The notes beneath the pieces were generated by a model. It made no database searches. It was not told the origin of the DNA and was given only the letters and a program-made list of their open reading frames with translations. From assembly GCA_963704705.1 (NCBI GenBank), contig OY969931.1, positions 510,001-542,000 of the forward strand: DNA of 32,000 bases, given 5' to 3'. The stretch comes from an uncultured bacterium (GTDB taxonomy: Bacteria > Patescibacteriota > Gracilibacteria > UBA1369 > PNNO01). The position numbers and the translations under genes were made by a program. How positions within the stretch are numbered: the first letter of the stretch is position 1; every line of letters starts with the position of its first letter. Positions 2 through 10,687 of the stretch are shown here, piece after piece.

Positions 2-2248
2 ATGCCTGAAGTCATTGATCCTTCTGAAGGAGACACAATGAGAATTTATTACACTCTTGATACATGCGCTTACGTAAAAGTAAATGTAACTGACCCTTCA
101 AACAGCAATGCGCATGTAGCTGAGCTTCAGGACTGGACATATCAGTGTGATGGTGAACATTATGTTGTTTGGGAAGGCAAAAACGACAACAACCAAATTA
201 TGCATAATGGTGATTATAAAATTACAATTGATGCAAATAACAGCAAAGGATCAGATGAAGAAGTGGAATTTGTTGAAGTTACAGATAATAACGGAGGCGG
301 AAACAACAATGGAAATCTTCCTGATGTTTATGACTTAAGTTTAAACAGAGATGTGTTTGATCCTTATGATCAGACAGTTACATTAACTTATAAACTGGAC
401 GAATGTTCGGATGTAACAATCAAGATTTACGATGAAAATGATAATTATGTTGATACTTTAACTAATGCTGAAAATAAGTGTTCAGGTACTTTTACAGAAA
501 CCTGGAATGGTGAAGATTCATCAAATAATGAAGTTGATGATGGAAATTATTACTTCAAAGTCTATGCTTTAAATGATTACGGAAGCGATTCTGAAAAAAA
601 ATATGTTGAAGCTGATTCAAGCAGCAATAATTCAGGCAATGACAAACCGCAAATTACAAATGTAGATGTAAATCCAGATGTATTTAATCCTTATGATGAA
701 GATACTGAATTGAAATTTAAATTAAATACTTGTGCAGATGTAAGCATTGATGTTCGTGATCAGGATAATGATGTTGTTTATGAGGTTATTCATAATAAAA
801 ATTTATGTAGCGGTACACATTCTTACAAATGGGACGGTGAAGATGATAATAATCATTATGTAAGAGAAGATAATTATGAATTTTACATCAGAGCTGAAAA
901 TGATGAAGGAACTGATACAGCACGAGCTGATGTTGATGTTGATTACAACGGCTACACTTACAATTCAGGAGAAAGATGTTCAAATTACCTTGATGTAAGC
1001 ACAAGCAGTGAATATTGCGATGCTATTGAATATGTAACTGGAAGAGGAATTTTCGACGGATATCCTGACGGAACATTTAAACCTTATCAGGCAATTAACC
1101 GCGCTGAAACTTCAAAAGTTATTATTAAAGGATTTGATTATCCTATACTTTCACCTGACGGAACAAACCTTGGATTCTGGGATTTATTACCTGAAGCTTG
1201 GTATATTCCTTATATAAAAACAGGTAAGGCTTACGGAATTTTACAGGGATATCCTGATGGTTCATTCCAGCCTGCAAGAACAGTAAACCGCGTGGAATTA
1301 CTTAAGATTTTCCTTGAGTCAGCAAATGTAGCATTGCCTACTTGCAATACAGCTCCTTATGTTGACACTCCAAAACAAGCGGATACAGAATGGTATATTC
1401 CATATGTTTGCTATGCGAAAATGAACAATTTAATGGATACAGACTATTATGGTCACTTTAATCCTGATAAACCAATGACTCGCGGCGATGTAGCTGAGTT
1501 ATTCTACAGATTTTCAAACCGCGATTATAATACCAATTACACTTATAACGACCCATATTATTACGACGATTACTACTACACCAACACAACTACCGGAACA
1601 GTAGCAAAATTAAGCAATGTTGAACTTTCTGATGATAAGGTTGAACGAGGCGATGCATTCACTATTTATTATAATTTGAATGTACGATCTGATGTAACTA
1701 TTGAAATCCTTGATGAAGATGGTGATGTTGTAAGAGAAATTATTGATGACTTCAGCCAGTCAGCAGGAAGATTATCAGCTCGCTTTAACGGAGAAAATGA
1801 CGATGGTGACGATTTAAGATTGGGTGATTACACTGTAAGAATAGTTGCACGTAACTATTATGGATCAGACAAAGAAGAAATTGATTTTGAAGTTGCTGAA
1901 AACGGAGGAAGCAGTAGCGACGACTACAGAGATACCAATAAATTAGTTGATGTTTACGATCTTAATCTGGATCCAGACGAGTTCGATCCTGATACTGAAG
2001 ACACGACTTTTTCATTCAGATTGAGCAGAACAGCAAATGTTACAGTTAAAGTTTACGATGATAACAATCACCTTGTATTAAGATTGATTGATGAAGAAGA
2101 TTTAAGAGGAGGATATCAGTCAGTGAACTGGGATGGTGATGATAAAGACGGATATCAGGTTGATGACGGTGATTATAAAATTGTAATTCAGGCAGATAGT
2201 TCGCTTGGAAATGATGAAGAAGAAATTTATGTAACAGTAAACAGCTAG
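2..2248 (+). CDS. Cell-surface (S-layer-type) protein, 5'-truncated at the window edge. Five ~100-aa Ig-like beta-sandwich repeats flank three SLH domains.
   Basis: The ORF is open from the window edge and has no signal peptide, so the N-terminus lies outside the window. Repeat modules by eye: aa 1-95, 106-205, 216-314, 533-633, 647-748 (pattern ...VFDPYD..T.L.Y.L....V.I.I.D......L.......G.....W.G.D.....V.DG.Y...I.A....G.D....V.V), resembling FlgD-Ig-type domains. The central region carries three SLH-like units (YLDV..SEYCDAIEYVTGRGIFDGYPDGTFKPYQAINRAE; FWDL.PEAWYIPYIKTGKAYGILQGYPDGSFQPARTVNRVE; YVDT..TEWYIPYVCYAKMNNLM....GHFNPDKPMTRGDVAE). Confidence 0.8.
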   Translation: MPEVIDPSEGDTMRIYYTLDTCAYVKVNVTDPSNSNAHVAELQDWTYQCDGEHYVVWEGKNDNNQIMHNGDYKITIDANNSKGSDEEVEFVEVTDNNGGGNNNGNLPDVYDLSLNRDVFDPYDQTVTLTYKLDECSDVTIKIYDENDNYVDTLTNAENKCSGTFTETWNGEDSSNNEVDDGNYYFKVYALNDYGSDSEKKYVEADSSSNNSGNDKPQITNVDVNPDVFNPYDEDTELKFKLNTCADVSIDVRDQDNDVVYEVIHNKNLCSGTHSYKWDGEDDNNHYVREDNYEFYIRAENDEGTDTARADVDVDYNGYTYNSGERCSNYLDVSTSSEYCDAIEYVTGRGIFDGYPDGTFKPYQAINRAETSKVIIKGFDYPILSPDGTNLGFWDLLPEAWYIPYIKTGKAYGILQGYPDGSFQPARTVNRVELLKIFLESANVALPTCNTAPYVDTPKQADTEWYIPYVCYAKMNNLMDTDYYGHFNPDKPMTRGDVAELFYRFSNRDYNTNYTYNDPYYYDDYYYTNTTTGTVAKLSNVELSDDKVERGDAFTIYYNLNVRSDVTIEILDEDGDVVREIIDDFSQSAGRLSARFNGENDDGDDLRLGDYTVRIVARNYYGSDKEEIDFEVAENGGSSSDDYRDTNKLVDVYDLNLDPDEFDPDTEDTTFSFRLSRTANVTVKVYDDNNHLVLRLIDEEDLRGGYQSVNWDGDDKDGYQVDDGDYKIVIQADSSLGNDEEEIYVTVNS
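977..1519 (+). other. Three tandem SLH (S-layer homology) domains inside the surface protein
   Basis: aa ~326-506 match the SLH consensus (aromatic-x-D-V/L ... GI.xGYPDGxFxP ... (T/N)RxE) three times. Confidence 0.65.
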
Positions 2249-2401: not shown

Positions 2402-2824
2402 ATGGGTAAAAAATCTAGTTTAATATTAGGACTACTTGCCGGAACTGCTCTTGGCATACTTTTTGCACCAAAAACCGGAAAAACTTTAAGAAAACAAATT
2501 AAAGAAGAACGCGATAGCGGAGGTTATGGCCTTTCAGCAATAAAAGAAGGTTTTGTTGGAATGGGAAAAGAAGTTGTTGATACAGCTAAAGAGGCTTATG
2601 AATCTGAAGATGTTCAGGAACAGATTTCAATGGCTAGAGAAAAAGCTGAAGAATTGGCTGAAGAAGGGAAAGAACAAGTAAGAAGAGTTGCTAGAAGAGC
2701 TGGCAGAAAAGCAAAAATGACTGCTACCAAAGTAGGACGAAAAGCAGGCAGAAAAGCTAAAAAAACTGCTGCAAAAGTAGGACGAAAAGCTAAGGCATTT
2801 ACAAAAAAGAAAATTGGAAAGTAA
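2402..2824 (+). CDS. YtxH-domain membrane-anchored protein with a Lys/Arg-rich repetitive C-terminus
   Basis: The N-terminus LILGLLAGTALGILFAPKTGKTLRKQIKEE is the hallmark YtxH motif. The C-terminus repeats (A)GRKAK..TA.KVGRKA. A 17-nt direct repeat AAAGTAGGACGAAAAGC occurs at 2729 and 2773. Confidence 0.7.
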   Translation: MGKKSSLILGLLAGTALGILFAPKTGKTLRKQIKEERDSGGYGLSAIKEGFVGMGKEVVDTAKEAYESEDVQEQISMAREKAEELAEEGKEQVRRVARRAGRKAKMTATKVGRKAGRKAKKTAAKVGRKAKAFTKKKIGK

Positions 2825-3645: not shown

Positions 3646-4251
3646 ATGCATAGTTTTAAATTAACAAAGATTAATAAAAATTCATGGTATTTTCCGCTTA
3701 TTATTGTAGTAATATTTTTTTTATTAAGTTATTTTTTTAGAAATCAATATACTCCGATTATCTTTGTTGTAATTTTTTTCTCTTTTACGATAATTTCCGG
3801 CATGCTAACAAAGAAAGTAATTTTGGAGGTTCAAAATAACAATATAATGATTAGAACAAAAAGCAGCGAAGTAATATTTATGACATCAATAAAACCAGAT
3901 CAAATTAAAAAAGCATTATGGAAAGATGAAGGAAAGGGGATAGGCCCGGCAGTTATTTTAAAAATGCCTGATGGTACTGACATTTCTATTGGTACCATGA
4001 ATATAAGTTTTAATTGGGCTCAACCCGTAGAAGAAATTATTAAACCAAATTATTCGTTAGAAGATAAACAATGGAATGATTTTATTCAGGCAATCGGTTT
4101 ACATAGCGAAGTTTTAAACTCCGATGAAATTTTAGCAAATATAGAAAAAACAAAAAAAGTAGTAACTAGAATAAGCATGGGAATTATTATATTTACAGTT
4201 GCCTTGGTTTTAATTTCCGTGGGGCTTCTTTTATGGCTCGATATTTCTTGA
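3646..4251 (+). CDS. Hypothetical membrane protein (2 N-terminal TM helices, soluble middle, C-terminal TM helix)
   Basis: The ATG lies 1 nt after the pheA stop. Hydrophobic segments are YFPLIIVVIFFLLSYFF, IIFVVIFFSFTIISGML and GIIIFTVALVLISVGLLLWL. I recognise no family. Confidence 0.6.
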   Translation: MHSFKLTKINKNSWYFPLIIVVIFFLLSYFFRNQYTPIIFVVIFFSFTIISGMLTKKVILEVQNNNIMIRTKSSEVIFMTSIKPDQIKKALWKDEGKGIGPAVILKMPDGTDISIGTMNISFNWAQPVEEIIKPNYSLEDKQWNDFIQAIGLHSEVLNSDEILANIEKTKKVVTRISMGIIIFTVALVLISVGLLLWLDIS

Positions 4252-4346
4252 TTTGTTTTCCGTTTGAATAAGCCGTATGAATCGCGGTAGAGCAAGGGAA
4301 TTTAAAATCTTTAAGAATTTTGGAAGTTATTCGGTAAGATAAATTT

Positions 4347-5594
4347 CTATTTAAAAATACCGTTTGAGCGAAGATAATGATGTTTAGGTAGTCCCATAAA
4401 ACGGCATTTCTTTAATATTTCCTTGGCTTGCTTTTTTGATTTATAAGTAAGCTTTCCTGTAAGAAATTTAGTTACAATATTGAAAAATCTATTGGATAGA
4501 TATTGAACTTGTTTTGTATCAGTAACAAATTGATATGCTCTGGCATATTGTGAGAAATATTGATTTTGTTTCTTTTTATCCAGCCATAAAAATTCTTTAA
4601 GTCTTGCAATTCTTTTTGTTTCTGTTGTATGTGGATTATATTTGAATCGTTTTTTCCATTCTTTTGATATTCTGGTAATGCTTTTTTGAGGAAATTGAAC
4701 TTTCCCGTCTTTATATTGTAAACCGTGAAAATCAAAAGTTAAGTCATTAATGTTGCCGAATTGGCATTTATCCAGATTAAATTCGAGTTTCAATTTTTTA
4801 ATTTCTGTTTCAAGGTATAGTTTTATTTTTCTAAGTTTAACCGGGTCTTTATCCATTATTATAAAATCATCTCCTACTCTTCTGTACAGTGCAACCTGTT
4901 TTCCAATTATGTTATCAAGGTGATTTACATTCAAATTAAGGAAATGAGGACAAAAAGTCATACCCTGCAAAATACCTGTTCTATATGACATTAATGTTCC
5001 TTTATTAATGAATGGCTGTTTGATTATATTTCTTATGATTTCAAGAACGCGATCTTCAAAATCCATATTTTTTAGAATCTTCAAAATTATTTCATGATCT
5101 ATAAAATCAGCATATTTTTTAATATCCATTCTTAATACATATAATTCTTTACCGTAATTTCTAAGATAGAATCGCCTAACGCTTCTTGATGCGTAATAAC
5201 TGGCTTTATCACTTCTGAATGAATATACATAATCTGAATATGCAGCTGCAATAACCGGTTCGATTTGTCTTAATACGGCCTGACATTTAATTCTGTCTTT
5301 TAAAGTTAAAGAAAATGTGCCTCTGATTCCACCGTCTTTTTTAGGAACTTCGATATATTTTGCAGGTAATAAATTAACACCTGTTTTTAATTCTTTTTGG
5401 ACTGTTGCAAGCAGTTTATCGATATTTATTTCTGCCTTGGAAAGTGTTTGTCCATCAATACCTTTATAGCTATAAGTTTTGCATTTTTCAGTAAATTTTT
5501 TATATAAATCCAAATATGCCTGGCTTATGTTGTCCCAGGACACAATTGCATCATACATCGAAATTGGTTCTTTTGTTTTGAATAAATTCAGCAT
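4347..5594 (-). CDS. Stand-alone prokaryotic reverse transcriptase (415 aa): RT fingers/palm plus an alpha-helical C-terminal extension
   Basis: RT motifs by eye: motifs 1-2 PKKDGGIRGTFSLTLKDRIKCQAV (aa 84-107); YSFRSDKASYYA; motif 3 LRMDIKKYADFIDH (aa 155-167); motif 4 GILQGMTFCPHFLNL; motif 5 LYRRVGDDFIIM (V240-G-D-D243, nt 4866-4877); motifs 6-7 LEFNLDKCQF....FDFHGLQY. There is no endonuclease, nitrilase, primase or other fused domain. Confidence 0.9.
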   Translation of the reverse strand: MLNLFKTKEPISMYDAIVSWDNISQAYLDLYKKFTEKCKTYSYKGIDGQTLSKAEINIDKLLATVQKELKTGVNLLPAKYIEVPKKDGGIRGTFSLTLKDRIKCQAVLRQIEPVIAAAYSDYVYSFRSDKASYYASRSVRRFYLRNYGKELYVLRMDIKKYADFIDHEIILKILKNMDFEDRVLEIIRNIIKQPFINKGTLMSYRTGILQGMTFCPHFLNLNVNHLDNIIGKQVALYRRVGDDFIIMDKDPVKLRKIKLYLETEIKKLKLEFNLDKCQFGNINDLTFDFHGLQYKDGKVQFPQKSITRISKEWKKRFKYNPHTTETKRIARLKEFLWLDKKKQNQYFSQYARAYQFVTDTKQVQYLSNRFFNIVTKFLTGKLTYKSKKQAKEILKKCRFMGLPKHHYLRSNGIFK

Positions 5595-5925
5595 TTTTTT
5601 TGTATTCTCTGAAACGCCATTACAATACAGTTACGCCATAAAAATAATATAAATGACTAACTGTTAGTGATATGCATACAACTTACTGATCAATCCATAG
5701 GTGATCTGAAAGTGGGTTATGAAGAGAATATGAATATATTCTTAGAATAACTCACTAAGAGGATCATTAGTGGATAGTGAAGAAAGTATGTATGCTTTAC
5801 AATTCCCACTGTTATTCCCGGCATCTGTCAGGGAAATAATTATAATTTCTTAAATAACAGCCGCAATGTTTTAGATGCATCCCTTCTCAAAGATAAAATT
5901 GTAATGGCATTTCAAAGAACAAATC
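5595..5925 (-). ncRNA. Candidate structured noncoding RNA / long 5' leader co-transcribed with the RT gene (possible RT template or scaffold RNA)
   Basis: There is no ORF longer than 35 codons on either strand. A 17-bp long-range stem forms on the minus-sense RNA: UGAAAUGCCAUUACAAU (5914->5898) pairs with AUUGUAAUGGCGUUUCA (5626->5610), with a single U-G wobble. The same position would be an A-C mismatch on the plus sense. The stem encloses 271 nt that contain several local helices. The 3' arm ends 15 nt before the RT ATG. A promoter lies just upstream of the 5' arm. Confidence 0.5.
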
Positions 5926-5930
5926 GTATT

Positions 5931-5939
5931 ATTATACCA
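5931..5939 (-). promoter_or_regulatory. Extended -10 promoter (TGgTATAAT) driving the RT leader/ncRNA
   Basis: The minus strand reads TTTTGTGGTATAATAATACG. TATAAT is 5936->5931 with TG at 5939-5938. The -35 is weak (TTAGCT). The predicted start is ~5925, about 10 nt upstream of the 5' stem arm. Confidence 0.5.
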
Positions 5940-5996
5940 CAAAATTAACAAAAAGCTAAATATTGTATATGTATAGGTTAAGTTTTGCCTTTATTC

Positions 5997-6025
5997 TGGT
6001 AAAAAAGGCAATTTTGTAGTATAAT
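5997..6025 (+). promoter_or_regulatory. Candidate promoter for the ABC-like/PLD/PrsW cassette
   Basis: TGGTAA (5997-6002), 17-nt spacer, TATAAT (6020-6025), 26 nt upstream of the ATG at 6051. It overlaps an 8-bp hairpin (5985-5992 / 6004-6011). Confidence 0.3.
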
Positions 6026-6050
6026 AATCAGAAATAAAAAATAAAAATAA

Positions 6051-7772
6051 ATGCAATACGAGCTCACAAAAAAACAAATAATCTCGGAATCAAATAAAAT
6101 TCGCAGCGAATTTAGGCGAATAAACTTGGAAAAAAGCCAAAAAAAATATATTGGAAATTTTCTAAAAAAACACAAAAAGACTTTTTACATGCTTATTATT
6201 CTTACTGCAACTGAAACGCTTATAAGCATAGCTTTGCCGATAATAAGTCATCTTTATCTGGAAAAAAGTTTTGATTTGATGAGTTACAGTACTTTTCTGA
6301 TTGTTGGAATTAGTCTGTTTGTTTTAATTATTTTGTTTTTAATTAATAGTTTTTACAGGATTTTTGCCACACAGAAGTTCACAATGGAGGCTATTAATAA
6401 CGTACGTGAAGCATGGTACATTTATTATTTAAAGCACTCAGCTGCTTTTAAAGCAAACTTTGACGGGAAAAAATTGATGACCAAGTTCTTATATCATATT
6501 CAGTTATTAAGGCTTGGAGTAAGTAATGTTCTTGCAACAGGGCTTCAGGCTCTTTTGATGTATATTGCGATTTTGTTGTTTTCAATATTTTTCAATCCAA
6601 AGTTGTTTTTGGTTTTATGGCTTTCTGTGCCGCTTTTTATAATAATATTTCTTATCACAGATTATATAGGACGACATTATATTACCCGCGAACAAACATT
6701 TAACAGCAGAATAGTCGAACATTTAGCTGATACATTATTGAATTTTTCTCTGTTTAAATCACAGGGCAGGGAACGGGCAAAACTTAAAGACTTTGATAAT
6801 TTGATTGAAGTAGATACTTATTTTAGAATTAGAAGACAATTATGGCTTCAATTCAGTAATAGATTTTTGTATGGAATTATTCTTCTTGTTGGAGTGATTT
6901 TCTATTTTGTTCAGATTTACTGGCCATTTGTAGAATTTGATTCTCTTACAAATGTGGCAGCGACAGGTATTATAATGGCATATTTTGTGAAAGTTTTATA
7001 TTCCACAGCAAGAGTAGGAATGTTTTATGAGGCATTTAGATTAGGTTTGAGATTAGTAGTGCCAAAATTTCCATATAATATAAATAAATCCATCCTTAAA
7101 CTTCCAAGTTGGAAAAAATTGAGATTCCATAGCAAAAAAACAAAGCTCGCAAAATATGGAAATTACATAAAAGATTTTAATTTTGAAATTGAAAAAGGGA
7201 AAAAATATCTTGTCTATTCGAATGGATCATATGGAAAATCAACACTGGCAAAATATTTAACCGGTACAAAATCCAATTCGAGTATAATTGTAAATCTCGA
7301 TAAAAGGCGATTCACTTCCGATATTTTCACTTCTTACAAAAATAACAGCTTCTTTATTTCCGAGGAAATCCGTTTTGATATTACTCTGGCTGAGTACATT
7401 TTTGCTAAAGGTCTTGATGATATTTCAAGAGCTGATATTGATGAGTTAATAGATAAGCTGAAAAAATACGAAATATTTGATTTTTTATTTGATCATAAGA
7501 GTTTTATTGGAAGAGAGGTTGTATCAGGGGATCTTTCAACACAGGAAAATGCACTTTTGCAAATTGCACATTGTATTATGAATCCTAAAAAACTTATTTC
7601 TATTGATCACAGCTGTTTTGATGAATCTTATTCACAGATTATAAGAGGGTTGGAAATTTTGTTAGAAGAATGTCCTAAAACCACATATGTTTTCTTTTCA
7701 AATAAACCAAATAATTTATTTAAGTATGACAAAACGTTCGAGCTTAATAAGGCCGAGTTTAAAGAGATATAA
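6051..7772 (+). CDS. ABC exporter-like protein (N-terminal 6-TM type-1 exporter domain + C-terminal nucleotide-binding-like domain with degenerate catalytic motifs)
   Basis: The TM-rich region is aa ~45-330. The NBD-like region has Walker A-like SNGSYGKST, a signature-like LSTQE (instead of LSGGQ), Walker B LISIDHS (D-H instead of D-E), no Q-loop Gln (FFISEE), and FFSNKP where the H-loop His is expected. These alignments are by eye. Confidence 0.65.
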   Translation: MQYELTKKQIISESNKIRSEFRRINLEKSQKKYIGNFLKKHKKTFYMLIILTATETLISIALPIISHLYLEKSFDLMSYSTFLIVGISLFVLIILFLINSFYRIFATQKFTMEAINNVREAWYIYYLKHSAAFKANFDGKKLMTKFLYHIQLLRLGVSNVLATGLQALLMYIAILLFSIFFNPKLFLVLWLSVPLFIIIFLITDYIGRHYITREQTFNSRIVEHLADTLLNFSLFKSQGRERAKLKDFDNLIEVDTYFRIRRQLWLQFSNRFLYGIILLVGVIFYFVQIYWPFVEFDSLTNVAATGIIMAYFVKVLYSTARVGMFYEAFRLGLRLVVPKFPYNINKSILKLPSWKKLRFHSKKTKLAKYGNYIKDFNFEIEKGKKYLVYSNGSYGKSTLAKYLTGTKSNSSIIVNLDKRRFTSDIFTSYKNNSFFISEEIRFDITLAEYIFAKGLDDISRADIDELIDKLKKYEIFDFLFDHKSFIGREVVSGDLSTQENALLQIAHCIMNPKKLISIDHSCFDESYSQIIRGLEILLEECPKTTYVFFSNKPNNLFKYDKTFELNKAEFKEI

Positions 7773-8931
7773 AAAGCATTTCTTTATGCTTGTGGGATTT
7801 CTACTGGTGACTGCTTACCCTGTTTATTTGTTGTCTTCTGATCTTTCAGCTCATTTTATTATTGAACATCAATATAGTCCTAATTTTGAGGTTAATGTTG
7901 ATTATGATTTGGATTTAAATGTTTATGAAAATATTAACAATCAAATAAGTTTTACTGAGAAAGTATTGGACTCTATCAATAATGCACAAGAAGAAATATA
8001 TATAGCAATGTATTCATTTAATATAGAAGAAATTAGAGATGCATTGGTTAAGGCTGAAGAAAGAGGTGTTAAGGTAGTTCTTTATTATCATAATTCCAAG
8101 AGTTTGAAGATGGATGAATTTTTGGGAGATGTTAAAGACAAATTAGATGTCAGATATGTAGCAAAAATTGAAGGTGGAGAAAGTTATTATAATCTTCATC
8201 ATAAATTTATGATTGTTGATCCGAATCTTGAGACCAGGATTTTATTAACCGGCCCATGGAACTGGTCACATTTTCAGGAGGATTTAGATCCTAATATTAT
8301 AATCGAAACTCATGATAAAGAAATTATAAGTAGCTATATGCAGGAAATCGGAAGAATTGACAGAGGTTATTCTGGATATTTTAAATTCAGGGATTTAACT
8401 TATCTTCCTTGGGATAAATTGATTAATTATCCGAATGGTGAAAGTGTTGAAATTTGGTGGTCACCTGGAAGAAATGCCAATTCAATCGAAGGAAGGGTTA
8501 TTGCATTAATTAAAGAAGCAAAAAATAAAATTGATGTAAGTATGACTCAATTTGATTCGTATCAAATTGCTACATGGCTTATAAGAAGGGCTAAAGACGG
8601 AGTTAAGGTAAGAATGATAGTAAGTGCCAATACTGTTGAAGACGAACAATCAATTGTTCCATGGTTTAAAAATAAAATTAAAGAATTGAATTTAAATATT
8701 GAAGTGTATGAAGGAGGCACTTTAGCTACAGAAGAGAATCCTGAGTATTCGATTTTTCATCATCACAATATGATTATTGACGATAAAGTAACATTTACAA
8801 GCACGGCAAACTGGACGTTTGGAGGATTTTTTGCGAATGATGAAAACAGTATGGTAATTACAAGTGAAAAAATTACAAAAGATTTTCAAAATATATTTGA
8901 TAACTATTTAAATTACCTAAATAATAAATAA
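7726..8931 (+). CDS. Membrane-anchored phospholipase D / HKD-superfamily protein (two PLD-like halves)
   Basis: The first half has an intact HxK(x)4D motif, YNLHHKFMIVD...LLTGPWNWS. The second half reads FHHHNMIIDDKVTFTSTANWT, which keeps His, Asp and the S-x-N but lacks the Lys. The ORF-track start at 7687 overlaps the ABC gene by 86 nt. The ATG at 7726 (MTKRSSLIRPSLKRYKKHFF + TM helix LVGFLLVTAYPVYLL) gives a typical positive-inside signal anchor. The ATG at 7786 is an alternative start. Confidence 0.7.
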   Translation: MTKRSSLIRPSLKRYKKHFFMLVGFLLVTAYPVYLLSSDLSAHFIIEHQYSPNFEVNVDYDLDLNVYENINNQISFTEKVLDSINNAQEEIYIAMYSFNIEEIRDALVKAEERGVKVVLYYHNSKSLKMDEFLGDVKDKLDVRYVAKIEGGESYYNLHHKFMIVDPNLETRILLTGPWNWSHFQEDLDPNIIIETHDKEIISSYMQEIGRIDRGYSGYFKFRDLTYLPWDKLINYPNGESVEIWWSPGRNANSIEGRVIALIKEAKNKIDVSMTQFDSYQIATWLIRRAKDGVKVRMIVSANTVEDEQSIVPWFKNKIKELNLNIEVYEGGTLATEENPEYSIFHHHNMIIDDKVTFTSTANWTFGGFFANDENSMVITSEKITKDFQNIFDNYLNYLNNK

Positions 8932-8932
8932 T

Positions 8933-10042
8933 ATGGATTATGCATTTATCGGACAAGCAGCGATTGTTGTCATTCTGGCATTAATTCCAGCCTTAATTTG
9001 GTTGCGTATTTGGAGAGGGAAAAGAAGTTCCAAAACAGGAAAACGATATATGCTTTTAGCTTTTGCTTTGGGAGCTTTGTCTGTTTTTCCTGTATTCTTT
9101 GTACATTGGATTTGGGCTACATTTCCCCAAACAGATGTTATTAATTTAATTACTCAGGTAGAGGTTACACCCAAACAAAAAGTTATTATCCTGTTTACTA
9201 TAGTTGCGATTGTTGAAGAAGTAGCTAAATTTTTGGTTGTACTATCTATTGATAAATCTTCAAAACTTGTAAGATCCATTCATGACGCGATTAAATTTGG
9301 AGTAACAGCTGGGCTTGGATTTGCTTTTGCGGAAAATATTTATTATTTTTATACAGTTGGTGTAAATATGCAGTTAGTGCAGTTTATTGCTTTATTTACT
9401 TTTAGATCATTAATCACTGTTTGCGGACATTTAATCTTTTCAGGTGTATTCGGTAATTATTATGGTATATCTAAATTTTCCAAATCATATGCTACTCAGG
9501 CTTACTGGGGAAATACAAGAAAACTTGATAAACGATCGCTAACTGATCAGCAATTGGACAGAAAAGCATTTATTTTCAGAAAAATGATGATCGCTAAAGG
9601 ACTTACATATGCTGTTGTTTTGCATGCCATGTTTAATTACTTTTTGGAAAATCAAATGGTAAGTTATGTTTTATGGCTAATTGGAATAAGTCTTATTTAT
9701 CTGGTTTATTTATACAAAAGGAGAAGCGGATATATTAATGTTTTATATAGAGAATCCAAATTTTCACATATGAGAGATAGAGATAAAGATGTTGTGCTTG
9801 AATTACTTGGCATGTGGTACAAAGAAGGCAAATATATGCAGGTAATAGATACCTCAAAAAGATTATTAAAAAAAGATCCAAACAACCCATTAATACGTTT
9901 ATTTTTAAATAAAGCTGTTGATAACCAGAAATTTATTGATGCATATAGTGCAATCAGGAATCTTTTCTTTCCAAAAAATTATCTAGAAGGATTGGATGAA
10001 GAAGAATTTGATGAAGAAGAAAAAAATGAAAAATCGACTTAA
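8933..10042 (+). CDS. PrsW-family intramembrane protease with a ~90-aa soluble C-terminal extension
   Basis: Family hallmarks: EExxK (IVEEVAKFLVV), GLGFAFAENIYYFY, CGHLIFSGVFG and HAMFNY, spread over multiple TM helices. The ATG is 1 nt after the PLD stop. The C-terminus ends in an acidic tail (EEEFDEEEKNEK). Confidence 0.75.
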   Translation: MDYAFIGQAAIVVILALIPALIWLRIWRGKRSSKTGKRYMLLAFALGALSVFPVFFVHWIWATFPQTDVINLITQVEVTPKQKVIILFTIVAIVEEVAKFLVVLSIDKSSKLVRSIHDAIKFGVTAGLGFAFAENIYYFYTVGVNMQLVQFIALFTFRSLITVCGHLIFSGVFGNYYGISKFSKSYATQAYWGNTRKLDKRSLTDQQLDRKAFIFRKMMIAKGLTYAVVLHAMFNYFLENQMVSYVLWLIGISLIYLVYLYKRRSGYINVLYRESKFSHMRDRDKDVVLELLGMWYKEGKYMQVIDTSKRLLKKDPNNPLIRLFLNKAVDNQKFIDAYSAIRNLFFPKNYLEGLDEEEFDEEEKNEKST

Positions 10043-10114: not shown

Positions 10115-10687
10115 ATGGAAGAAAACAAAAAACCAGTTCCACCAATGATGGAACAAAAATTAGTAAAATTTGAGATCGGAAAATTGCTTGCATTAGTCAT
10201 TACTGTAGTTGTAGTTGCAGGTGTTGCAGGTATATTCCTTACTTCAAATTATTTTAAGGGTGATCTTGGTGATGCTCAAAACGGAGCATTAAGTCAAGAT
10301 GAAGAATTTGCTTTACAGCAGAATTGTAATACTTTTACAATTCCACAAATTCAGGAGAGATTATCAAGTTCTTATGTAACTGCTGAAGAAAAAAGTATTC
10401 TTCATGCATGTATGAATGAATTATATGAAGATAGATCAACAGTACCTCAGATAGTTCCAAAAGATGATGACACTGTAAATACAACAGTACCTCAGATAGT
10501 TCCAAGAGATGATGATACTGTAAATACAACAGTACCTCAGATAGTTCCAAAAGATGATGACACTGTAAATACAACAGTACCTGCGATAGTTCCAAAAGAT
10601 GATGACACTGTAAATACAACAGTACCTCAGATAGTTCCAAGAGATGATGATACTGTAAATACAACAGTACCTGCGATAAAAAAATAA
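10115..10687 (+). CDS. Single-pass membrane protein with a C-terminal array of 15-aa repeats (TVPQIVPKDDDTVNT)
   Basis: N-terminal TM helix LLALVITVVVVAGVAGIFLT. The exported part ends in 5.3 tandem 15-aa repeats. A promoter lies upstream and a terminator downstream. Confidence 0.7.
   Translation: MEENKKPVPPMMEQKLVKFEIGKLLALVITVVVVAGVAGIFLTSNYFKGDLGDAQNGALSQDEEFALQQNCNTFTIPQIQERLSSSYVTAEEKSILHACMNELYEDRSTVPQIVPKDDDTVNTTVPQIVPRDDDTVNTTVPQIVPKDDDTVNTTVPAIVPKDDDTVNTTVPQIVPRDDDTVNTTVPAIKK
10439..10678 (+). repeat. 45-bp in-frame tandem repeat, 5 full units plus a 15-nt partial unit
   Basis: Units start at 10439, 10484, 10529, 10574, 10619 and 10664 (partial). Two unit variants occur: AAA..GAC (Lys) and AGA..GAT (Arg). 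A further CAG/GCG (Gln/Ala) difference is present in unit 4 and the partial unit. Confidence 0.95.

What the first reader, a model, noticed from the sequence alone, without database searches (positions are those of the whole stretch)
4347..5594. Stand-alone reverse transcriptase with a non-canonical R-V-G-D-D-F catalytic box, outside any intron, DGR or CRISPR context
Seen: all seven RT motifs are recognisable. The motif-5 box reads LYRRVGDDFIIM (nt 4866-4877), where group II intron, retron and DGR RTs normally read R-Y-(A/M/V/C)-D-D-F. The conserved Tyr is Val and the variable residue is Gly. Motif 3 (DIKKYADFIDH) keeps the aromatic steric-gate position, which is consistent with a DNA-synthesising enzyme. 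I saw none of the family-specific signatures: no DGR motif-4 SQ signature, no retron VTG triplet in motif 7, and no fused effector domain. The gene is monocistronic, convergent with a housekeeping-side gene and divergent from the ABC/PLD/PrsW cassette. A ~120-aa basic helical C-terminus (aa ~300-415) may be a thumb or RNA-binding domain. Inference: this is a member of one of the poorly characterised unknown-group (UG/Abi-like) or group-II-like RT clades, or a new one.
Basis: partly seen in the sequence, partly recalled or inferred. Interest (0 to 1): 0.7.

Follow-up and report, generated by a model that had tools for sequence, protein, structure and literature searches.

The report
RT with ncRNA, ABC and PLD partners
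The odd reverse transcriptase is real, but it is not stand-alone: in about 100 loci, mostly from tiny 'candidate phyla radiation' (Patescibacteria) bacteria, it sits next to its own pseudoknotted non-coding RNA, a crippled ABC-transporter-like membrane protein and a membrane-anchored PLD-type enzyme, a four-part system I could not find described.

Summary
The ORF at 4347-5594 (-) is a 415-aa intact reverse transcriptase. Its V-G-D-D catalytic box is not a singleton: every family member examined (about 90) reads Y-x-R-[VILMC]-G-D-D, and every out-group RT reads R-[Y/F]-x-D-D. By sequence and predicted fold it is closest to group II intron RTs. No intron RNA, DGR repeats or CRISPR array is present, so it is a new group-II-like (G2L-type) clade.

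The "stand-alone" reading is wrong.
1. In 96 distinct loci the RT always lies next to the same divergent ABC-exporter-like gene and tandem-HKD PLD gene. Three gene arrangements occur, and no locus with enough sequence lacks them.
2. A structured ncRNA of about 320 nt lies immediately 5' of the RT (window 5603-5921, -). It has a 16-33 bp closing stem, a pseudoknot domain, variable hairpins and a 3' hairpin. The pseudoknot helix is 96-99% paired, and all six of its pairs covary.
3. The ABC ATPase motifs are degenerate.
4. The PLD is predicted to face outward and resembles NucT/DrmC and PLD3/4-type nucleases.

Best reading: a retron/DRT-like RT system templated by the ncRNA, with membrane effectors, probably a conflict (defence) system. 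The function is inferred, not shown.

The parts
4347..5594 (-). Reverse transcriptase, 415 aa: RT0-7 fingers/palm, thumb and a helical C-terminal domain. G2L-type, with motif C Y-R-R-V-G-D-D.
   Evidence: ORF. RVT_1. Group II RT model TIGR04416 scores 133 bits, below its cutoff of 300. The family profile hits group II intron RT structures at ~130 bits. AF2 model pLDDT 86; Foldseek best match is GsI-IIC RT, TM 0.73-0.78.
4866..4877 (-). V240-G241-D242-D243 codons (catalytic motif C). They align with Y221-A222-D223-D224 of GsI-IIC RT.
   Evidence: The motif is family-wide as [VILMC]-G-D-D; out-groups read Y/F-x-D-D.
5603..5921 (-). Conserved structured ncRNA (~319 nt), from the start of the 5' closing arm to the end of the 3' closing arm. 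It ends 8 nt before the RT start codon.
   Evidence: Alignment of close relatives. Helix finder against shuffles. RNAfold architecture. Covariance model hits.
5931..5939 (-). Candidate extended -10 promoter box TGgTATAAT for the ncRNA-RT transcript.
   Evidence: TGnTATAAT is conserved upstream of the 5' arm in five of six relatives (L005 reads TGgTATACT; L008 and L012 lack it or are cut off). No -35 hexamer was found by the consensus scan. The transcription start is inferred only.
5898..5921 (-). 5' arm of the closing stem (TGTTCTTTGAAATGCCATTACAAT).
   Evidence: It pairs with 5603-5626. Helix score is 51, against 23.3 +/- 3.2 (max 36) in dinucleotide shuffles. Compensatory changes are seen among relatives.
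5603..5626 (-). 3' arm of the closing stem (ATTGTAATGGCGTTTCAGAGAATA). It abuts the RT translation start region.
5796..5899 (-). Pseudoknot domain. It comprises SL1, S1 (GCATCT 5873-5878 pairing with AGATGC 5821-5826), H2 (GGCTGTTATT 5853-5862 pairing with AATAACAGTG 5807-5816) and an outer helix.
   Evidence: CM R1 hit, 44 bits, E 4e-5. Pair counts: the S1 helix is 95.7%, 96.2% and 99.1% paired, with 6/6 pairs covarying, on three alignments.
5672..5795 (-). Variable, G-poor central region with hairpins and short direct repeats. It is the candidate template ('msd-like') segment.
   Evidence: It is variable in length (about 25-226 nt) and sequence between loci, while the flanking scaffold is conserved. 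The template role is inferred, not tested.
5627..5671 (-). Conserved single-stranded ATCAC(T) motif plus the 3' hairpin (AACAGTTA...TAACTGT).
   Evidence: Compensatory changes in close relatives. An equivalent hairpin, often with a CCGTTTGG/CCGTTAAGG-like loop, occurs in other clades.
6051..7772 (+). ABC-exporter-like membrane protein (573 aa; transmembrane domain plus a degenerate nucleotide-binding domain). Conserved partner of the RT.
   Evidence: Pfam ABC_membrane 43 bits and ABC_tran 31 bits. Full-length but weak alignment to ABCB1, TM287/288 and Sav1866. Walker B reads D-N/H with no catalytic Glu; there is no LSGGQ and no H-loop His. Adjacent to the RT in 82 of 96 loci, with the rest truncated or ORF-call artefacts. 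Reciprocal search.
7687..8931 (+). Membrane-anchored tandem-HKD PLD-family protein (414-aa ORF; the gene caller starts it at 7726, giving 401 aa). Conserved partner.
   Evidence: Two PLDc_2 domains. NucT 85 bits and DrmC 56-72 bits, against cardiolipin synthase 24 bits. Closest solved sequences are NucT, Nuc and Zucchini. AF2 pLDDT 88.8; fold matches are bacterial PLD, PLD3/PLD4 and vaccinia F13. HKD1 is MHHKFxxxD; HKD2 is HxHxxxxD. A basic N-terminus followed by one TM helix in 37/40 members.
8933..10042 (+). PrsW-family intramembrane protease. It follows PLD only in the window's own clade and is probably not a core part.
   Evidence: Pfam and NCBIfam. Present in W, L001-L007 and L013 only.

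Best explanation
The ORF is the polymerase of a conserved four-part module: a ~200-420-nt pseudoknotted ncRNA, a group-II-intron-like RT (YRR[V/I/L]GDD), an ABC-exporter-like membrane protein with a degenerate ATPase site, and a membrane-anchored two-HKD PLD enzyme of the nuclease-like branch.

Proposed mechanism:
- The ncRNA and RT are made from one transcript.
- The RT binds the pseudoknot domain held by the long closing stem.
- It reverse-transcribes part of the ncRNA, most likely the variable hairpin region, as in retrons and DRT2/9/10.
- The resulting RNP or cDNA controls, or is handed to, the ABC-like/PLD membrane pair.
- Biologically this is most likely a conflict (anti-phage or abortive-infection type) system of Patescibacteria.

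Shown here: the four components, their strict linkage, the RNA structure, the intact polymerase catalytic residues, the degenerate ABC motifs and the PLD motifs.

Inferred: RNA binding, cDNA synthesis, which segment is the template, the role of ABC/PLD as effectors, and the defence function.
For: Linkage:
- RT-ABC-PLD are co-directional with overlapping ORFs in 73 loci and divergent in 9. The remaining 14 of 96 distinct loci are contig ends or ORF-call artefacts.
- A third, convergent arrangement occurs in L117.
- Searches started from ABC or from PLD return the same operons.
- Other neighbouring genes differ between loci.

ncRNA:
- The closing stem exceeds the 95th percentile of dinucleotide shuffles in 41 of 47 loci, and exceeds every shuffle in 30 of 47.
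- On a plain MAFFT alignment, 78% of cells are paired against 35-44% for slid controls.
- The pseudoknot helix, which was not part of the covariance model, is 96.2% and 99.1% paired with 6/6 pairs covarying.
- The covariance model hits 85 of 107 loci. Every hit with E<=0.25 is on the RT strand and upstream of the RT, including loci not in the seed. The only two matches elsewhere have E 0.7-0.8.
- G-U pairs make the structure strand-specific.
- The ncRNA stays with the RT in all three gene arrangements.
- Some loci carry two tandem ncRNAs that share the scaffold but differ in the central hairpins.

RT:
- D157, D242, D243 and K276 are invariant.

Analogy and distribution:
- Retrons, DRT2, DRT9 and DRT10 all combine an RT, an upstream ncRNA template and often a membrane or nuclease effector (PMC12632851 read; PMC9226505).
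- The distribution is patchy: about 55 clusters at 50% identity among 1.84 billion representatives.
- Some genomes carry 2-3 paralogous copies.
- One copy lies in a 61%-GC Longimicrobiales contig. This fits an accessory, horizontally moving system.
Against: - There are no experimental data of any kind.
- In the eight genomic contexts whose flanking genes were annotated, the neighbours are housekeeping or envelope genes, not defence islands or mobile elements.
- Within the window's clade the locus is syntenic down to ~50% RT identity, which looks like vertical inheritance.
- Only 1 hit was found in 2.9 million viral contigs.
- The PLD domains are predicted to be extracytoplasmic. That fits poorly with a nuclease effector that destroys intracellular DNA.
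- The ABC and PrsW proteins have no PADLOC hit.
- No priming feature is recognisable: there is no conserved retron-like branching G next to the stem.
- An A-B-A' template search was uninformative in these AT-rich RNAs.
Confidence: 0.55

Rival explanations
1. This is a domesticated, non-defence cell-envelope function specific to episymbiotic Patescibacteria. The cytoplasmic RT makes a single-stranded nucleic acid from its ncRNA. That product is passed through, or regulates, the ABC-like membrane protein, and it is processed by the surface-exposed PLD3/4-like exonuclease. Possible roles are nucleic-acid export, surface display, or scavenging and uptake control.
For: - The PLD has a basic N-terminus followed by a single TM helix in 37/40 members, which predicts catalytic domains outside the membrane.
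- Its fold matches the type II membrane ssDNA exonucleases PLD3/PLD4. By HMM its nearest sequence relatives are NucT and Nuc; the closest out-group PLDs in the large protein database are secreted proteins with a T9SS tail.
- The ABC protein has an exporter-type architecture, and its most conserved residues lie in the transmembrane and coupling region.
- Neighbours are housekeeping or envelope genes, and the locus is stably syntenic in the window's clade.
- The system is almost confined to one bacterial radiation.
Against: - The family is rare and patchy rather than core: about 55 clusters at 50% identity, and 42 loci among 185,579 species representatives found by a pattern-limited scan.
- Paralogous copies within genomes and a copy outside the radiation look like an accessory system.
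- The ABC ATPase site lacks the catalytic Glu, the signature motif and the H-loop His, so active transport is doubtful.
- The topology rests only on the positive-inside rule.
Confidence: 0.2
2. The upstream RNA is only a cis-regulatory leader. It would autoregulate RT translation, as domain IVa does in group II introns. The RT would then act on other substrates, for example as a G2L4-like DNA-repair polymerase or by copying cellular or phage RNAs. ABC and PLD would be co-regulated neighbours rather than partners.
For: - The 3' arm of the closing stem ends 0-20 nt before the start codon in many loci, so the ribosome-binding region is partly sequestered.
- From my own knowledge (not checked in a paper here): group II intron RTs bind an RNA stem containing their own start codon, and G2L4 RTs work without a dedicated template RNA.
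- The G2L4 structure is among the fold matches.
Against: - A 200-420-nt RNA with a pseudoknot, a 16-33 bp closing stem and a variable internal cargo is much more than a translational operator.
- Tandem second ncRNA copies that do not abut the RT start codon exist.
- G2L4 sequences score only 42 bits against the family profile.
- ABC/PLD linkage survives three different gene arrangements and divergence down to ~25% identity.
Confidence: 0.12
3. It is a decaying group II intron or other retroelement remnant, and the upstream RNA consists of degenerate intron domains.
For: The best sequence and fold matches are group II intron RTs.
Against: - No group II intron RNA model matches, even at E<=10.
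- In most loci the RT stop codon overlaps the ABC start, which leaves no room for domains V and VI.
- The ORF is intact, and catalytic residues are invariant across ~35%-identical homologues.
- The RNA structure is under purifying selection of its own kind.
- The locus is single-copy and syntenic in related genomes.
Confidence: 0.02
4. The polymerase does not make DNA. The G-D-D box resembles that of viral RdRPs, and the residue aligned with the steric gate is small. Together these could make it an RNA-templated RNA polymerase, or a polymerase of mixed sugar specificity.
For: - Motif C is xGDD family-wide.
- Ala162, variable across the family (A/S/T/F/C), aligns with F143 of GsI-IIC RT; F143 as the gate residue is from memory.
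- Related out-group RTs give weak Pfam RdRP_1 hits around motif C.
Against: - An invariant Tyr161 sits one residue upstream and could occupy the gate position after a local register shift.
- The whole fold and all the best matches are DNA-synthesising RTs.
- The query itself gives no RdRP_1 hit.
- Some YGDD intermediates exist among ordinary RT relatives.
Confidence: 0.03

Closest known systems
Group II intron reverse transcriptases/maturases (e.g. GsI-IIC RT, Eubacterium rectale and Roseburia intestinalis maturases)
   Same: They are the best sequence and structure matches: TIGR04416 133 bits, family profile against PDB ~130 bits, Foldseek TM 0.73-0.78 over almost the full length. The N-terminal extension/RT0, RT1-7 and thumb are all present, and motif 7 is of the F-L-G type.
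   Different: There are no intron RNA domains and no endonuclease domain. The score is far below the family cutoff of 300. Motif C is [V/I/L]-G-D-D instead of Y-A-D-D. The gene is embedded in an ncRNA-RT-ABC-PLD module.
G2L (group-II-like) RTs, including G2L4 (PDB 9d4s/9d5x)
   Same: It meets the operational definition: it is closest to group II intron RTs and lacks the intron RNA (definition in PMC8632793). G2L4 is among the fold matches.
   Different: G2L4 sequences score only 42 bits against the family profile. The published G2L associations I could read (a queuosine-gene cluster, defence islands) do not include ABC/PLD or this ncRNA. From memory, G2L4 is a stand-alone repair polymerase with Y-I-D-D.
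Retrons (msr-msd ncRNA + RT + effector)
   Same: The layout is the same. The ncRNA lies directly 5' of the RT on the same strand and is closed by long inverted repeats. A conserved recognition domain comes first and a variable hairpin region second. Accessory protein genes are tightly linked, and several known retron effectors are membrane proteins or nucleases (retron layout from general knowledge; retron I-A paper seen).
   Different: The RT is not in the retron clade: NF038233 scores 26 bits against a cutoff of 235, and PADLOC retron RT models score 15-28 bits. No conserved branching-G context is seen next to the stem. A pseudoknot domain is present. The effector pair is new.
DRT2, DRT9 and DRT10 (UG2, UG28, UG17): class 2 UG/Abi RTs with template ncRNAs
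   Same: Each combines an RT with an upstream structured ncRNA, which is pseudoknotted in DRT2. DRT10 adds a membrane (SLATT) effector. DRT9 structures are among the fold matches. PADLOC scores are UG17 70 bits and Drt9 55 bits.
   Different: These models score lower than the group II intron model. The ncRNA has a different size and architecture. No known poly-U or A-B-A' template loop could be identified. The partners differ.
CRISPR-associated RT-Cas1 (e.g. PDB 7kft)
   Same: It is the next-best sequence relative: 110 bits against PDB, and PADLOC Cas1_IIIb 72 bits.
   Different: The locus has no Cas1 fusion, no cas genes and no array.
Telomerase (TERT + telomerase RNA)
   Same: This is an analogy only. 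The RNA has a core-enclosing helix plus a pseudoknot. Motif C lacks the Tyr; from memory, TERT reads L-V-D-D-F. The DRT10 paper links class 2 UG RTs to telomerase.
   Different: No sequence-level relationship was tested or found. No short template with an alignment region was identified.
PLD-family nucleases: NucT/Nuc, DISARM DrmC, Zucchini, PLD3/PLD4
   Same: The PLD partner's best HMM matches are NucT and DrmC. The two-HKD bilobal fold with an N-terminal membrane anchor parallels PLD3/PLD4, which are ssDNA 5' exonucleases.
   Different: It is a tandem fusion of two Nuc-like halves. The second motif reads H-x-H-x4-D instead of H-x-K-x4-D. The substrate is unknown, and fold matches also include lipid-acting PLDs and PssA.
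Type IV (ABCB-like) ABC exporters: Sav1866, TM287/288, MsbA, PCAT1
   Same: It aligns over its full length as a half-transporter, with about six TM helices plus a nucleotide-binding domain.
   Different: Scores are very low (38-63 bits). The catalytic Glu, the LSGGQ signature and the H-loop His are absent, and the Walker A Lys is not invariant. The most conserved residues are in the membrane and coupling region.

Membership tests
Group II intron RT/maturase | Protein reaches the curated family score (NCBIfam TIGR04416, cutoff 300 bits) | tested here: not met
   133 bits over residues 43-336.
Group II intron RT/maturase | ORF lies inside an intron RNA (domains I-VI; domain V/VI detectable) | tested here: not met
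   No Rfam group II model matches at the gathering score in the window, nor at E<=10 in 4000-6300. In relatives the RT stop overlaps the next ORF.
Group II intron RT/maturase | Y-A-D-D catalytic box | tested here: not met
   V-G-D-D here, and [VILMC]-G-D-D in all family members.
G2L (group-II-like) RTs | Closest relatives are group II intron RTs | tested here: met
   Best HMM, PDB-sequence and fold matches.
G2L (group-II-like) RTs | No intron RNA structure | tested here: met
G2L (group-II-like) RTs | Branches within the published G2L lineage (G2L4, G2L5 and the further clades of Toro et al. 2019) in a reference phylogeny | not tested
   The reference RT dataset was not available. G2L4 structures score only 42 bits against the family profile.
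Retron | RT belongs to the retron RT clade | tested here: not met
   NF038233 scores 25.8 bits against a cutoff of 235. PADLOC retron RT models score 15-28 bits. Retron RT structures score 27-32 bits.
Retron | ncRNA directly upstream of the RT, flanked by inverted repeats (a1/a2) | tested here: met
   Closing stem of 16-33 bp, significant against shuffles. The ncRNA is on the same strand, and its 3' arm ends 0-79 nt (0-20 nt in most loci) before the RT start.
Retron | Conserved priming G and production of branched msDNA | not testable with these tools
   No conserved G next to the stem by eye. Biochemistry is needed.
UG/Abi (DRT) RTs | Best match to one UG/Abi group profile | tested here: inconclusive
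   UG26 87, UG4 82, UG17 70 and Drt9 55 bits, all below the group II intron model and a generic RT model at 125 bits. The partners published for those groups differ.
DGR RT | Template/variable repeat pair and accessory Avd near the RT | tested here: not met
   No TR/VR-like repeat in the window. The DGR RT structure scores only 50 bits.
CRISPR-associated RT | Fusion to or adjacency with cas1/cas genes and a CRISPR array | tested here: not met
   No array. The neighbours are ABC, PLD, PrsW and prephenate dehydratase.
ABC transporter (active ATPase) | Walker A GxxGxGK[ST], LSGGQ signature, Walker B hhhhD-E, H-loop His | tested here: not met
   The Walker B Asp is invariant but is followed by N/H. 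The signature and H-loop are absent. The Walker A Lys is below 90% conserved.
PLD/HKD superfamily | Two H-x-K-x4-D motifs forming one active site | tested here: met
   The first motif, MHHKFxxxD, is invariant. The second is H-x-H-x4-D, with both His and the Asp conserved (a K-to-H variant). The bilobal fold is predicted with pLDDT 88.8.

The most novel reading that the evidence does not exclude
This would be a reverse transcriptase system that works at the cell envelope rather than in the cytoplasm. The RT copies the variable part of its own pseudoknotted RNA into single-stranded nucleic acid. That product is passed to an ATPase-dead ABC-like channel and a surface-exposed PLD3/4-like exonuclease. 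The result would be a nucleic-acid export or processing device of episymbiotic Patescibacteria, or alternatively a polymerase with altered sugar or processivity properties because of its V-G-D-D active site. This would be a role for an RT with no described precedent.
Probability: 0.1. Interest if true: 0.95.

Novelty: new variant of a known kind. Interest (0 to 1): 0.78.

Why it matters
Bacterial RTs that work with a dedicated ncRNA (retrons, DRT2, DRT9, DRT10) have each revealed an unexpected way of making DNA, and several have become genome-engineering tools.

- This module adds a lineage that arose from group II intron-type RTs rather than from the retron or UG/Abi clades. It would therefore be an independent domestication of the 'RT + template RNA + effector' design.
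- Its catalytic box departs from the near-universal Y-x-D-D.
- Its RNA can be defined well by covariation alone.
- Its partner pair, a pseudo-ABC exporter and a membrane PLD, has not been linked to RTs in anything I could find.
- It is concentrated in Patescibacteria, whose biology is largely inaccessible. A compact four-part cassette that can be synthesised and tested in E. coli would make part of it experimentally tractable.

Tried and rejected
- Rfam at gathering and at E<=10: nothing relevant.
- tRNA scan: none.
- Consensus promoter scan: it did not list the conserved extended -10 box, because there is no -35 hexamer. The promoter call therefore rests on conservation only.
- RNAduplex for the closing stem was too greedy. 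I replaced it with a contiguous-helix finder and shuffle controls.
- First upstream windows were wrong for loci whose RT ORF is over-extended 5'. This was fixed by anchoring on the conserved N-terminal motif.
- Test for DRT10-like A-B-A' template patterns: short direct repeats are too frequent in these AT-rich RNAs to be informative.
- G-U content of central hairpins against the closing stem (5% vs 11%), as a hint of DNA-level selection: judged too weak, because MFE helices are biased.
- G-poverty of the central region holds in the window's clade but is not universal.
- Literature searches for RT + ABC + PLD in Patescibacteria/CPR, and for G2L in CPR, found nothing. myRT, the UG/Abi paper and the 2021 review do not mention such a system.
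- UG38, the CPR group of Mestre et al., scores only 28 bits, so it is rejected.
- Cardiolipin synthase reading of the PLD: 24 bits against 85 for NucT, so it is disfavoured. Fold search cannot separate lipid from nucleic-acid PLDs.
- Phage origin: 1 hit in the viral contig collection.
Full report
**Observation**

The window carries an intact 415-aa ORF at 4347-5594 on the minus strand. Pfam RVT_1 matches residues 83-293 over the whole model. The box L-Y-R-R-V-G-D-D-F-I-I-M is residues 236-247, and the quoted nt 4866-4877 are the V-G-D-D codons.

I found no Rfam family at threshold in the window and no group II intron RNA even at E<=10 around the gene. There are no tRNAs, no CRISPR array and no TR/VR-type repeat pair.

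**The V-G-D-D box is a family signature**

A search of 5.8 billion proteins found 31 full-length homologues down to about 30% identity, named where named at all as Patescibacteria. In their alignment Y237, R238, R239, D242 and D243 are invariant, and G241 is present in all but one.

A profile search of 1.84 billion cluster representatives found about 55 clusters belonging to the family. Inspection of motif C in all 184 retrieved proteins shows a clean split:
- Every family member reads Y-x-R-[VILMC]-G-D-D.
- Every out-group RT reads R-[Y/F]-[A/C/S/G]-D-D.
- A few intermediates read Y-G-D-D.

In the HMM alignment to the GsI-IIC group II intron RT, V240 and G241 align with Y221 and A222. In the same alignment the invariant Tyr161 aligns with F142. 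The residue aligned with F143, which I recall as the steric gate, is Ala162, and that position varies in the family.

**What kind of RT it is**

- The best profile is the group II intron RT/maturase model, at 133 bits against a curated cutoff of 300.
- PADLOC UG/DRT models score lower: UG26 87, UG4 82, UG17 70, Drt9 55 and UG38 28 bits. Retron models score lower still.
- The family profile hits solved group II intron RTs at about 130 bits, RT-Cas1 at 110, G2L4 at only 42 and retron RTs at about 30.
- An AlphaFold2 model (pLDDT 86) matches GsI-IIC RT with TM 0.73-0.78 over nearly the full length, followed by G2L4, DRT9 and DGR RTs. The helical C-terminus is therefore the thumb plus a further group-II-type domain.
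- The nearest out-groups in the representative library are tandem RT-RT fusions, RT-primase (TOTE) fusions and RT-Cas1.

By the operational definition in the 2021 review (closest to group II intron RTs, no intron RNA; PMC8632793) this is a G2L-type RT and a distinct clade. I did not run a reference phylogeny.

**It is not stand-alone: the protein partners**

Close relatives (50-80% identity) show the same divergent ABC-PLD-PrsW arrangement as the window. In relatives at about 35% identity the RT is the first gene of an RT-ABC-PLD operon with overlapping ORFs.

I fetched 42 loci from species-representative genomes and 59 from metagenomes and typed six-frame ORFs with family HMMs. Among 96 distinct RT loci:
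- 73 have ABC immediately downstream and co-directional.
- 9 have it divergent.
- The remaining 14 are contig ends or ORF-call artefacts. Two of these demonstrably have the partners (L054; L110).
- PLD follows ABC wherever the sequence continues.

A third arrangement, ABC-PLD convergent with RT, occurs in L117. Searches started from the ABC protein or from the PLD protein return only this family before a large drop in score. Their most distant members again sit in RT-ABC-PLD operons. Other neighbours vary. PrsW is confined to the window's clade.

**It is not stand-alone: the RNA**

The ~450 nt between the RT and ABC genes hold conserved blocks with compensatory changes among close relatives. 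Across the whole family the region upstream of the RT has one architecture, read 5' to 3':
- a long closing stem whose 3' arm ends within ~60 nt (one locus 79) of the RT start, and within 20 nt in most loci;
- a small hairpin;
- a pseudoknot domain;
- a variable region of one to several hairpins;
- a conserved single-stranded motif;
- a 3' hairpin, often with a CCGTTTGG- or CCGTTAAGG-like loop.

The evidence for this structure is as follows.
- The best closing helix has a median score of 40, against 23.3 +/- 3.2 (max 36) in dinucleotide shuffles. It exceeds the 95th percentile in 41 of 47 loci. The arm sequences differ completely between clades.
- On a plain MAFFT alignment of 35 pseudoknot domains, 78% of cells pair, against 35-44% when partners are slid. 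The pseudoknot helix is 95.7% paired with all six pairs changing on both sides.
- A covariance model built without the pseudoknot helix hits 42 of 48, 40 of 56 and 3 of 3 loci. Every hit with E<=0.25 is on the RT strand and upstream of the RT, including loci not in the seed. Only two chance-level matches (E 0.7-0.8) lie elsewhere.
- On those model-derived alignments the pseudoknot helix, which the model did not contain, is 96.2% and 99.1% paired with 6/6 pairs covarying.
- A divergent clade missed by the model shows the same design by eye.
- Some loci carry two complete ncRNAs in tandem, with the same scaffold but different central hairpins and closing stems.

In the window the RNA spans 5603-5921 (-). 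A conserved extended -10 box lies at 5931-5939.

**The partners in detail**

The ABC protein:
- It aligns end to end with ABCB-type half-transporters, but very weakly.
- Across the family the Walker B Asp is invariant but is followed by Asn or His instead of the catalytic Glu.
- The LSGGQ signature and the H-loop His are missing, and the Walker A Lys is not invariant.
- A set of residues in the membrane and coupling region is invariant.
- It therefore looks like an exporter-fold protein that no longer hydrolyses ATP in the usual way.

The PLD protein:
- It has two PLDc_2 domains. Its best profile matches are the nucleases NucT (85 bits) and DISARM DrmC, while cardiolipin synthase scores 24 bits. 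The closest solved sequences are NucT, Nuc and Zucchini.
- The first HKD motif is canonical. The second is H-x-H-x4-D throughout the family.
- A confident model (pLDDT 88.8) has the bilobal PLD fold. It matches a bacterial PLD, the type II membrane ssDNA exonucleases PLD3/PLD4 and vaccinia F13, and then lipid PLDs and PssA. Fold alone does not settle the substrate.
- In 37 of 40 members, a basic segment (typically net +3 to +8) precedes a single N-terminal hydrophobic helix. By the positive-inside rule this puts the catalytic domains outside the cytoplasmic membrane.

**How it most likely works**

Shown here:
- four strictly linked components;
- an RNA under strong structural selection that travels with the RT in all gene arrangements;
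- an RT with all catalytic residues intact.

Inferred from established knowledge of retrons and of DRT2, DRT9 and DRT10 (PMC12632851; PMC9226505):
- The RT binds the pseudoknot domain.
- It copies part of the RNA, most plausibly the variable hairpin region. That region occupies the position of the retron msd.
- The product or the RNP controls the ABC-like/PLD pair.

The following fit an accessory conflict system:
- The distribution is patchy.
- Single genomes carry paralogous copies with different RNAs.
- One copy lies in a 61%-GC Longimicrobiales contig.

The following argue against a defence function:
- The flanking genes are housekeeping or envelope genes.
- The locus is stably syntenic in the window's clade.
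- The PLD is predicted to face outward.

These leave real room for a non-defence envelope function. I therefore put 0.55 on the retron/DRT-like conflict-system reading. I put about 0.2 on an envelope or nucleic-acid-trafficking function, about 0.12 on 'leader RNA only, RT acts elsewhere', and very little on an intron remnant or an RNA-polymerase activity.

**Comparison with what is known, and novelty**

It works like a retron or DRT, but it fails the membership tests for retron, DGR, CRISPR-RT and group II intron RTs, and it does not clearly belong to any UG/Abi group. It fits only the loose G2L category.

Full-text searches for this gene combination, and the main RT classification papers, gave nothing. 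The search tool does not cover all journals, so prior description cannot be excluded.

I class it as a new variant of a known kind: an RNA-templated accessory RT system with a new RT clade, a new ncRNA and a new partner pair.

Noticed in passing
L027:939-1334, L052:5408-5802, L015:2567-3077, L055:130-453: Two pseudoknot-domain hits lie in tandem upstream of a single RT. In L027 and L052 they are two complete ncRNAs with the same scaffold but different central hairpins and closing stems. In L015 only the two domain hits were seen, and in L055 the second hit is weak (E 0.14). This may mean several 'cargo' RNAs serve one enzyme.
   Followed up: partly
L040 central ncRNA region (about 60 nt upstream of the 3' hairpin); L003; L013/L014; window 5672-5795: The central variable regions contain short tandem or direct repeats. 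L040 has (AACTAAACTG)n-like repeats, L003 has two 11-nt tandem duplications, and the window has ATATTC ATATTC. In the window's clade these regions are G-poor (10-15% G). A repeat-templating role was not testable.
   Followed up: partly
window 7687-8931 (+) and family alignment A7: The second HKD motif of the PLD partner reads H-x-H-x4-D (Lys replaced by His) in at least 90% of the family. The first motif is canonical.
   Followed up: partly
window 6051-7772 (+) and family alignment A5: The ABC partner has lost the catalytic Glu, the LSGGQ signature and the H-loop His, but keeps invariant residues in the transmembrane and coupling region. It also has a ~45-residue basic N-terminal extension before TM1.
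   Followed up: partly
P0082, P0083, P0089, P0090; P0091, P0099: The nearest out-group proteins are 740-860-aa fusions of two RT domains in tandem, and RT-TPR-primase (TOTE-type AEP) fusions. Some give weak Pfam RdRP_1 hits at motif C.
   Followed up: no
L025 (Longimicrobiales MAG, 2.96-Mb contig, local GC 61%): A complete ncRNA-RT-ABC-PLD cassette occurs outside Patescibacteria in a high-GC genome. Its RNA keeps the same helices written in GC-rich sequence. This suggests horizontal transfer.
   Followed up: partly
L022, L039, L040 (one MAG, CAYOAT); L016/L041; L027/L047: Single genomes carry two or three paralogous cassettes, each with its own closing-stem and pseudoknot sequences.
   Followed up: no
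window 10437-10672 (+), inside ORF 10115-10687: Five tandem copies of a 45-nt unit encode the repeated peptide TVPQIVPKDDDTVNT in a small membrane-anchored protein just downstream of PrsW.
   Followed up: no
window 2694-2790 (+), inside ORF 2402-2824: A 45-nt tandem duplication lies in a YtxH-like, Lys/Ala-rich small protein.
   Followed up: no
window 2-2248 (+): This is the C-terminal part of a very acidic, repetitive surface protein. Homologous genes in related loci carry FlgD_ig and SLH domains, so it is probably S-layer associated.
   Followed up: no
L054/L055, L116: In several operon-type loci the cassette is flanked by pseudopilin (T2SSG/N_methyl) genes, in L054/L055 also Fic-pseudopilin fusion genes. 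This may be coincidence in pilus-rich Patescibacteria.
   Followed up: no
P0205: A 566-aa protein combines LptA/LptC/OstA-like domains with a segment 57% identical to the ABC partner's membrane domain, on a 1.8-kb contig. It is probably an assembly or gene-call chimera.
   Followed up: no
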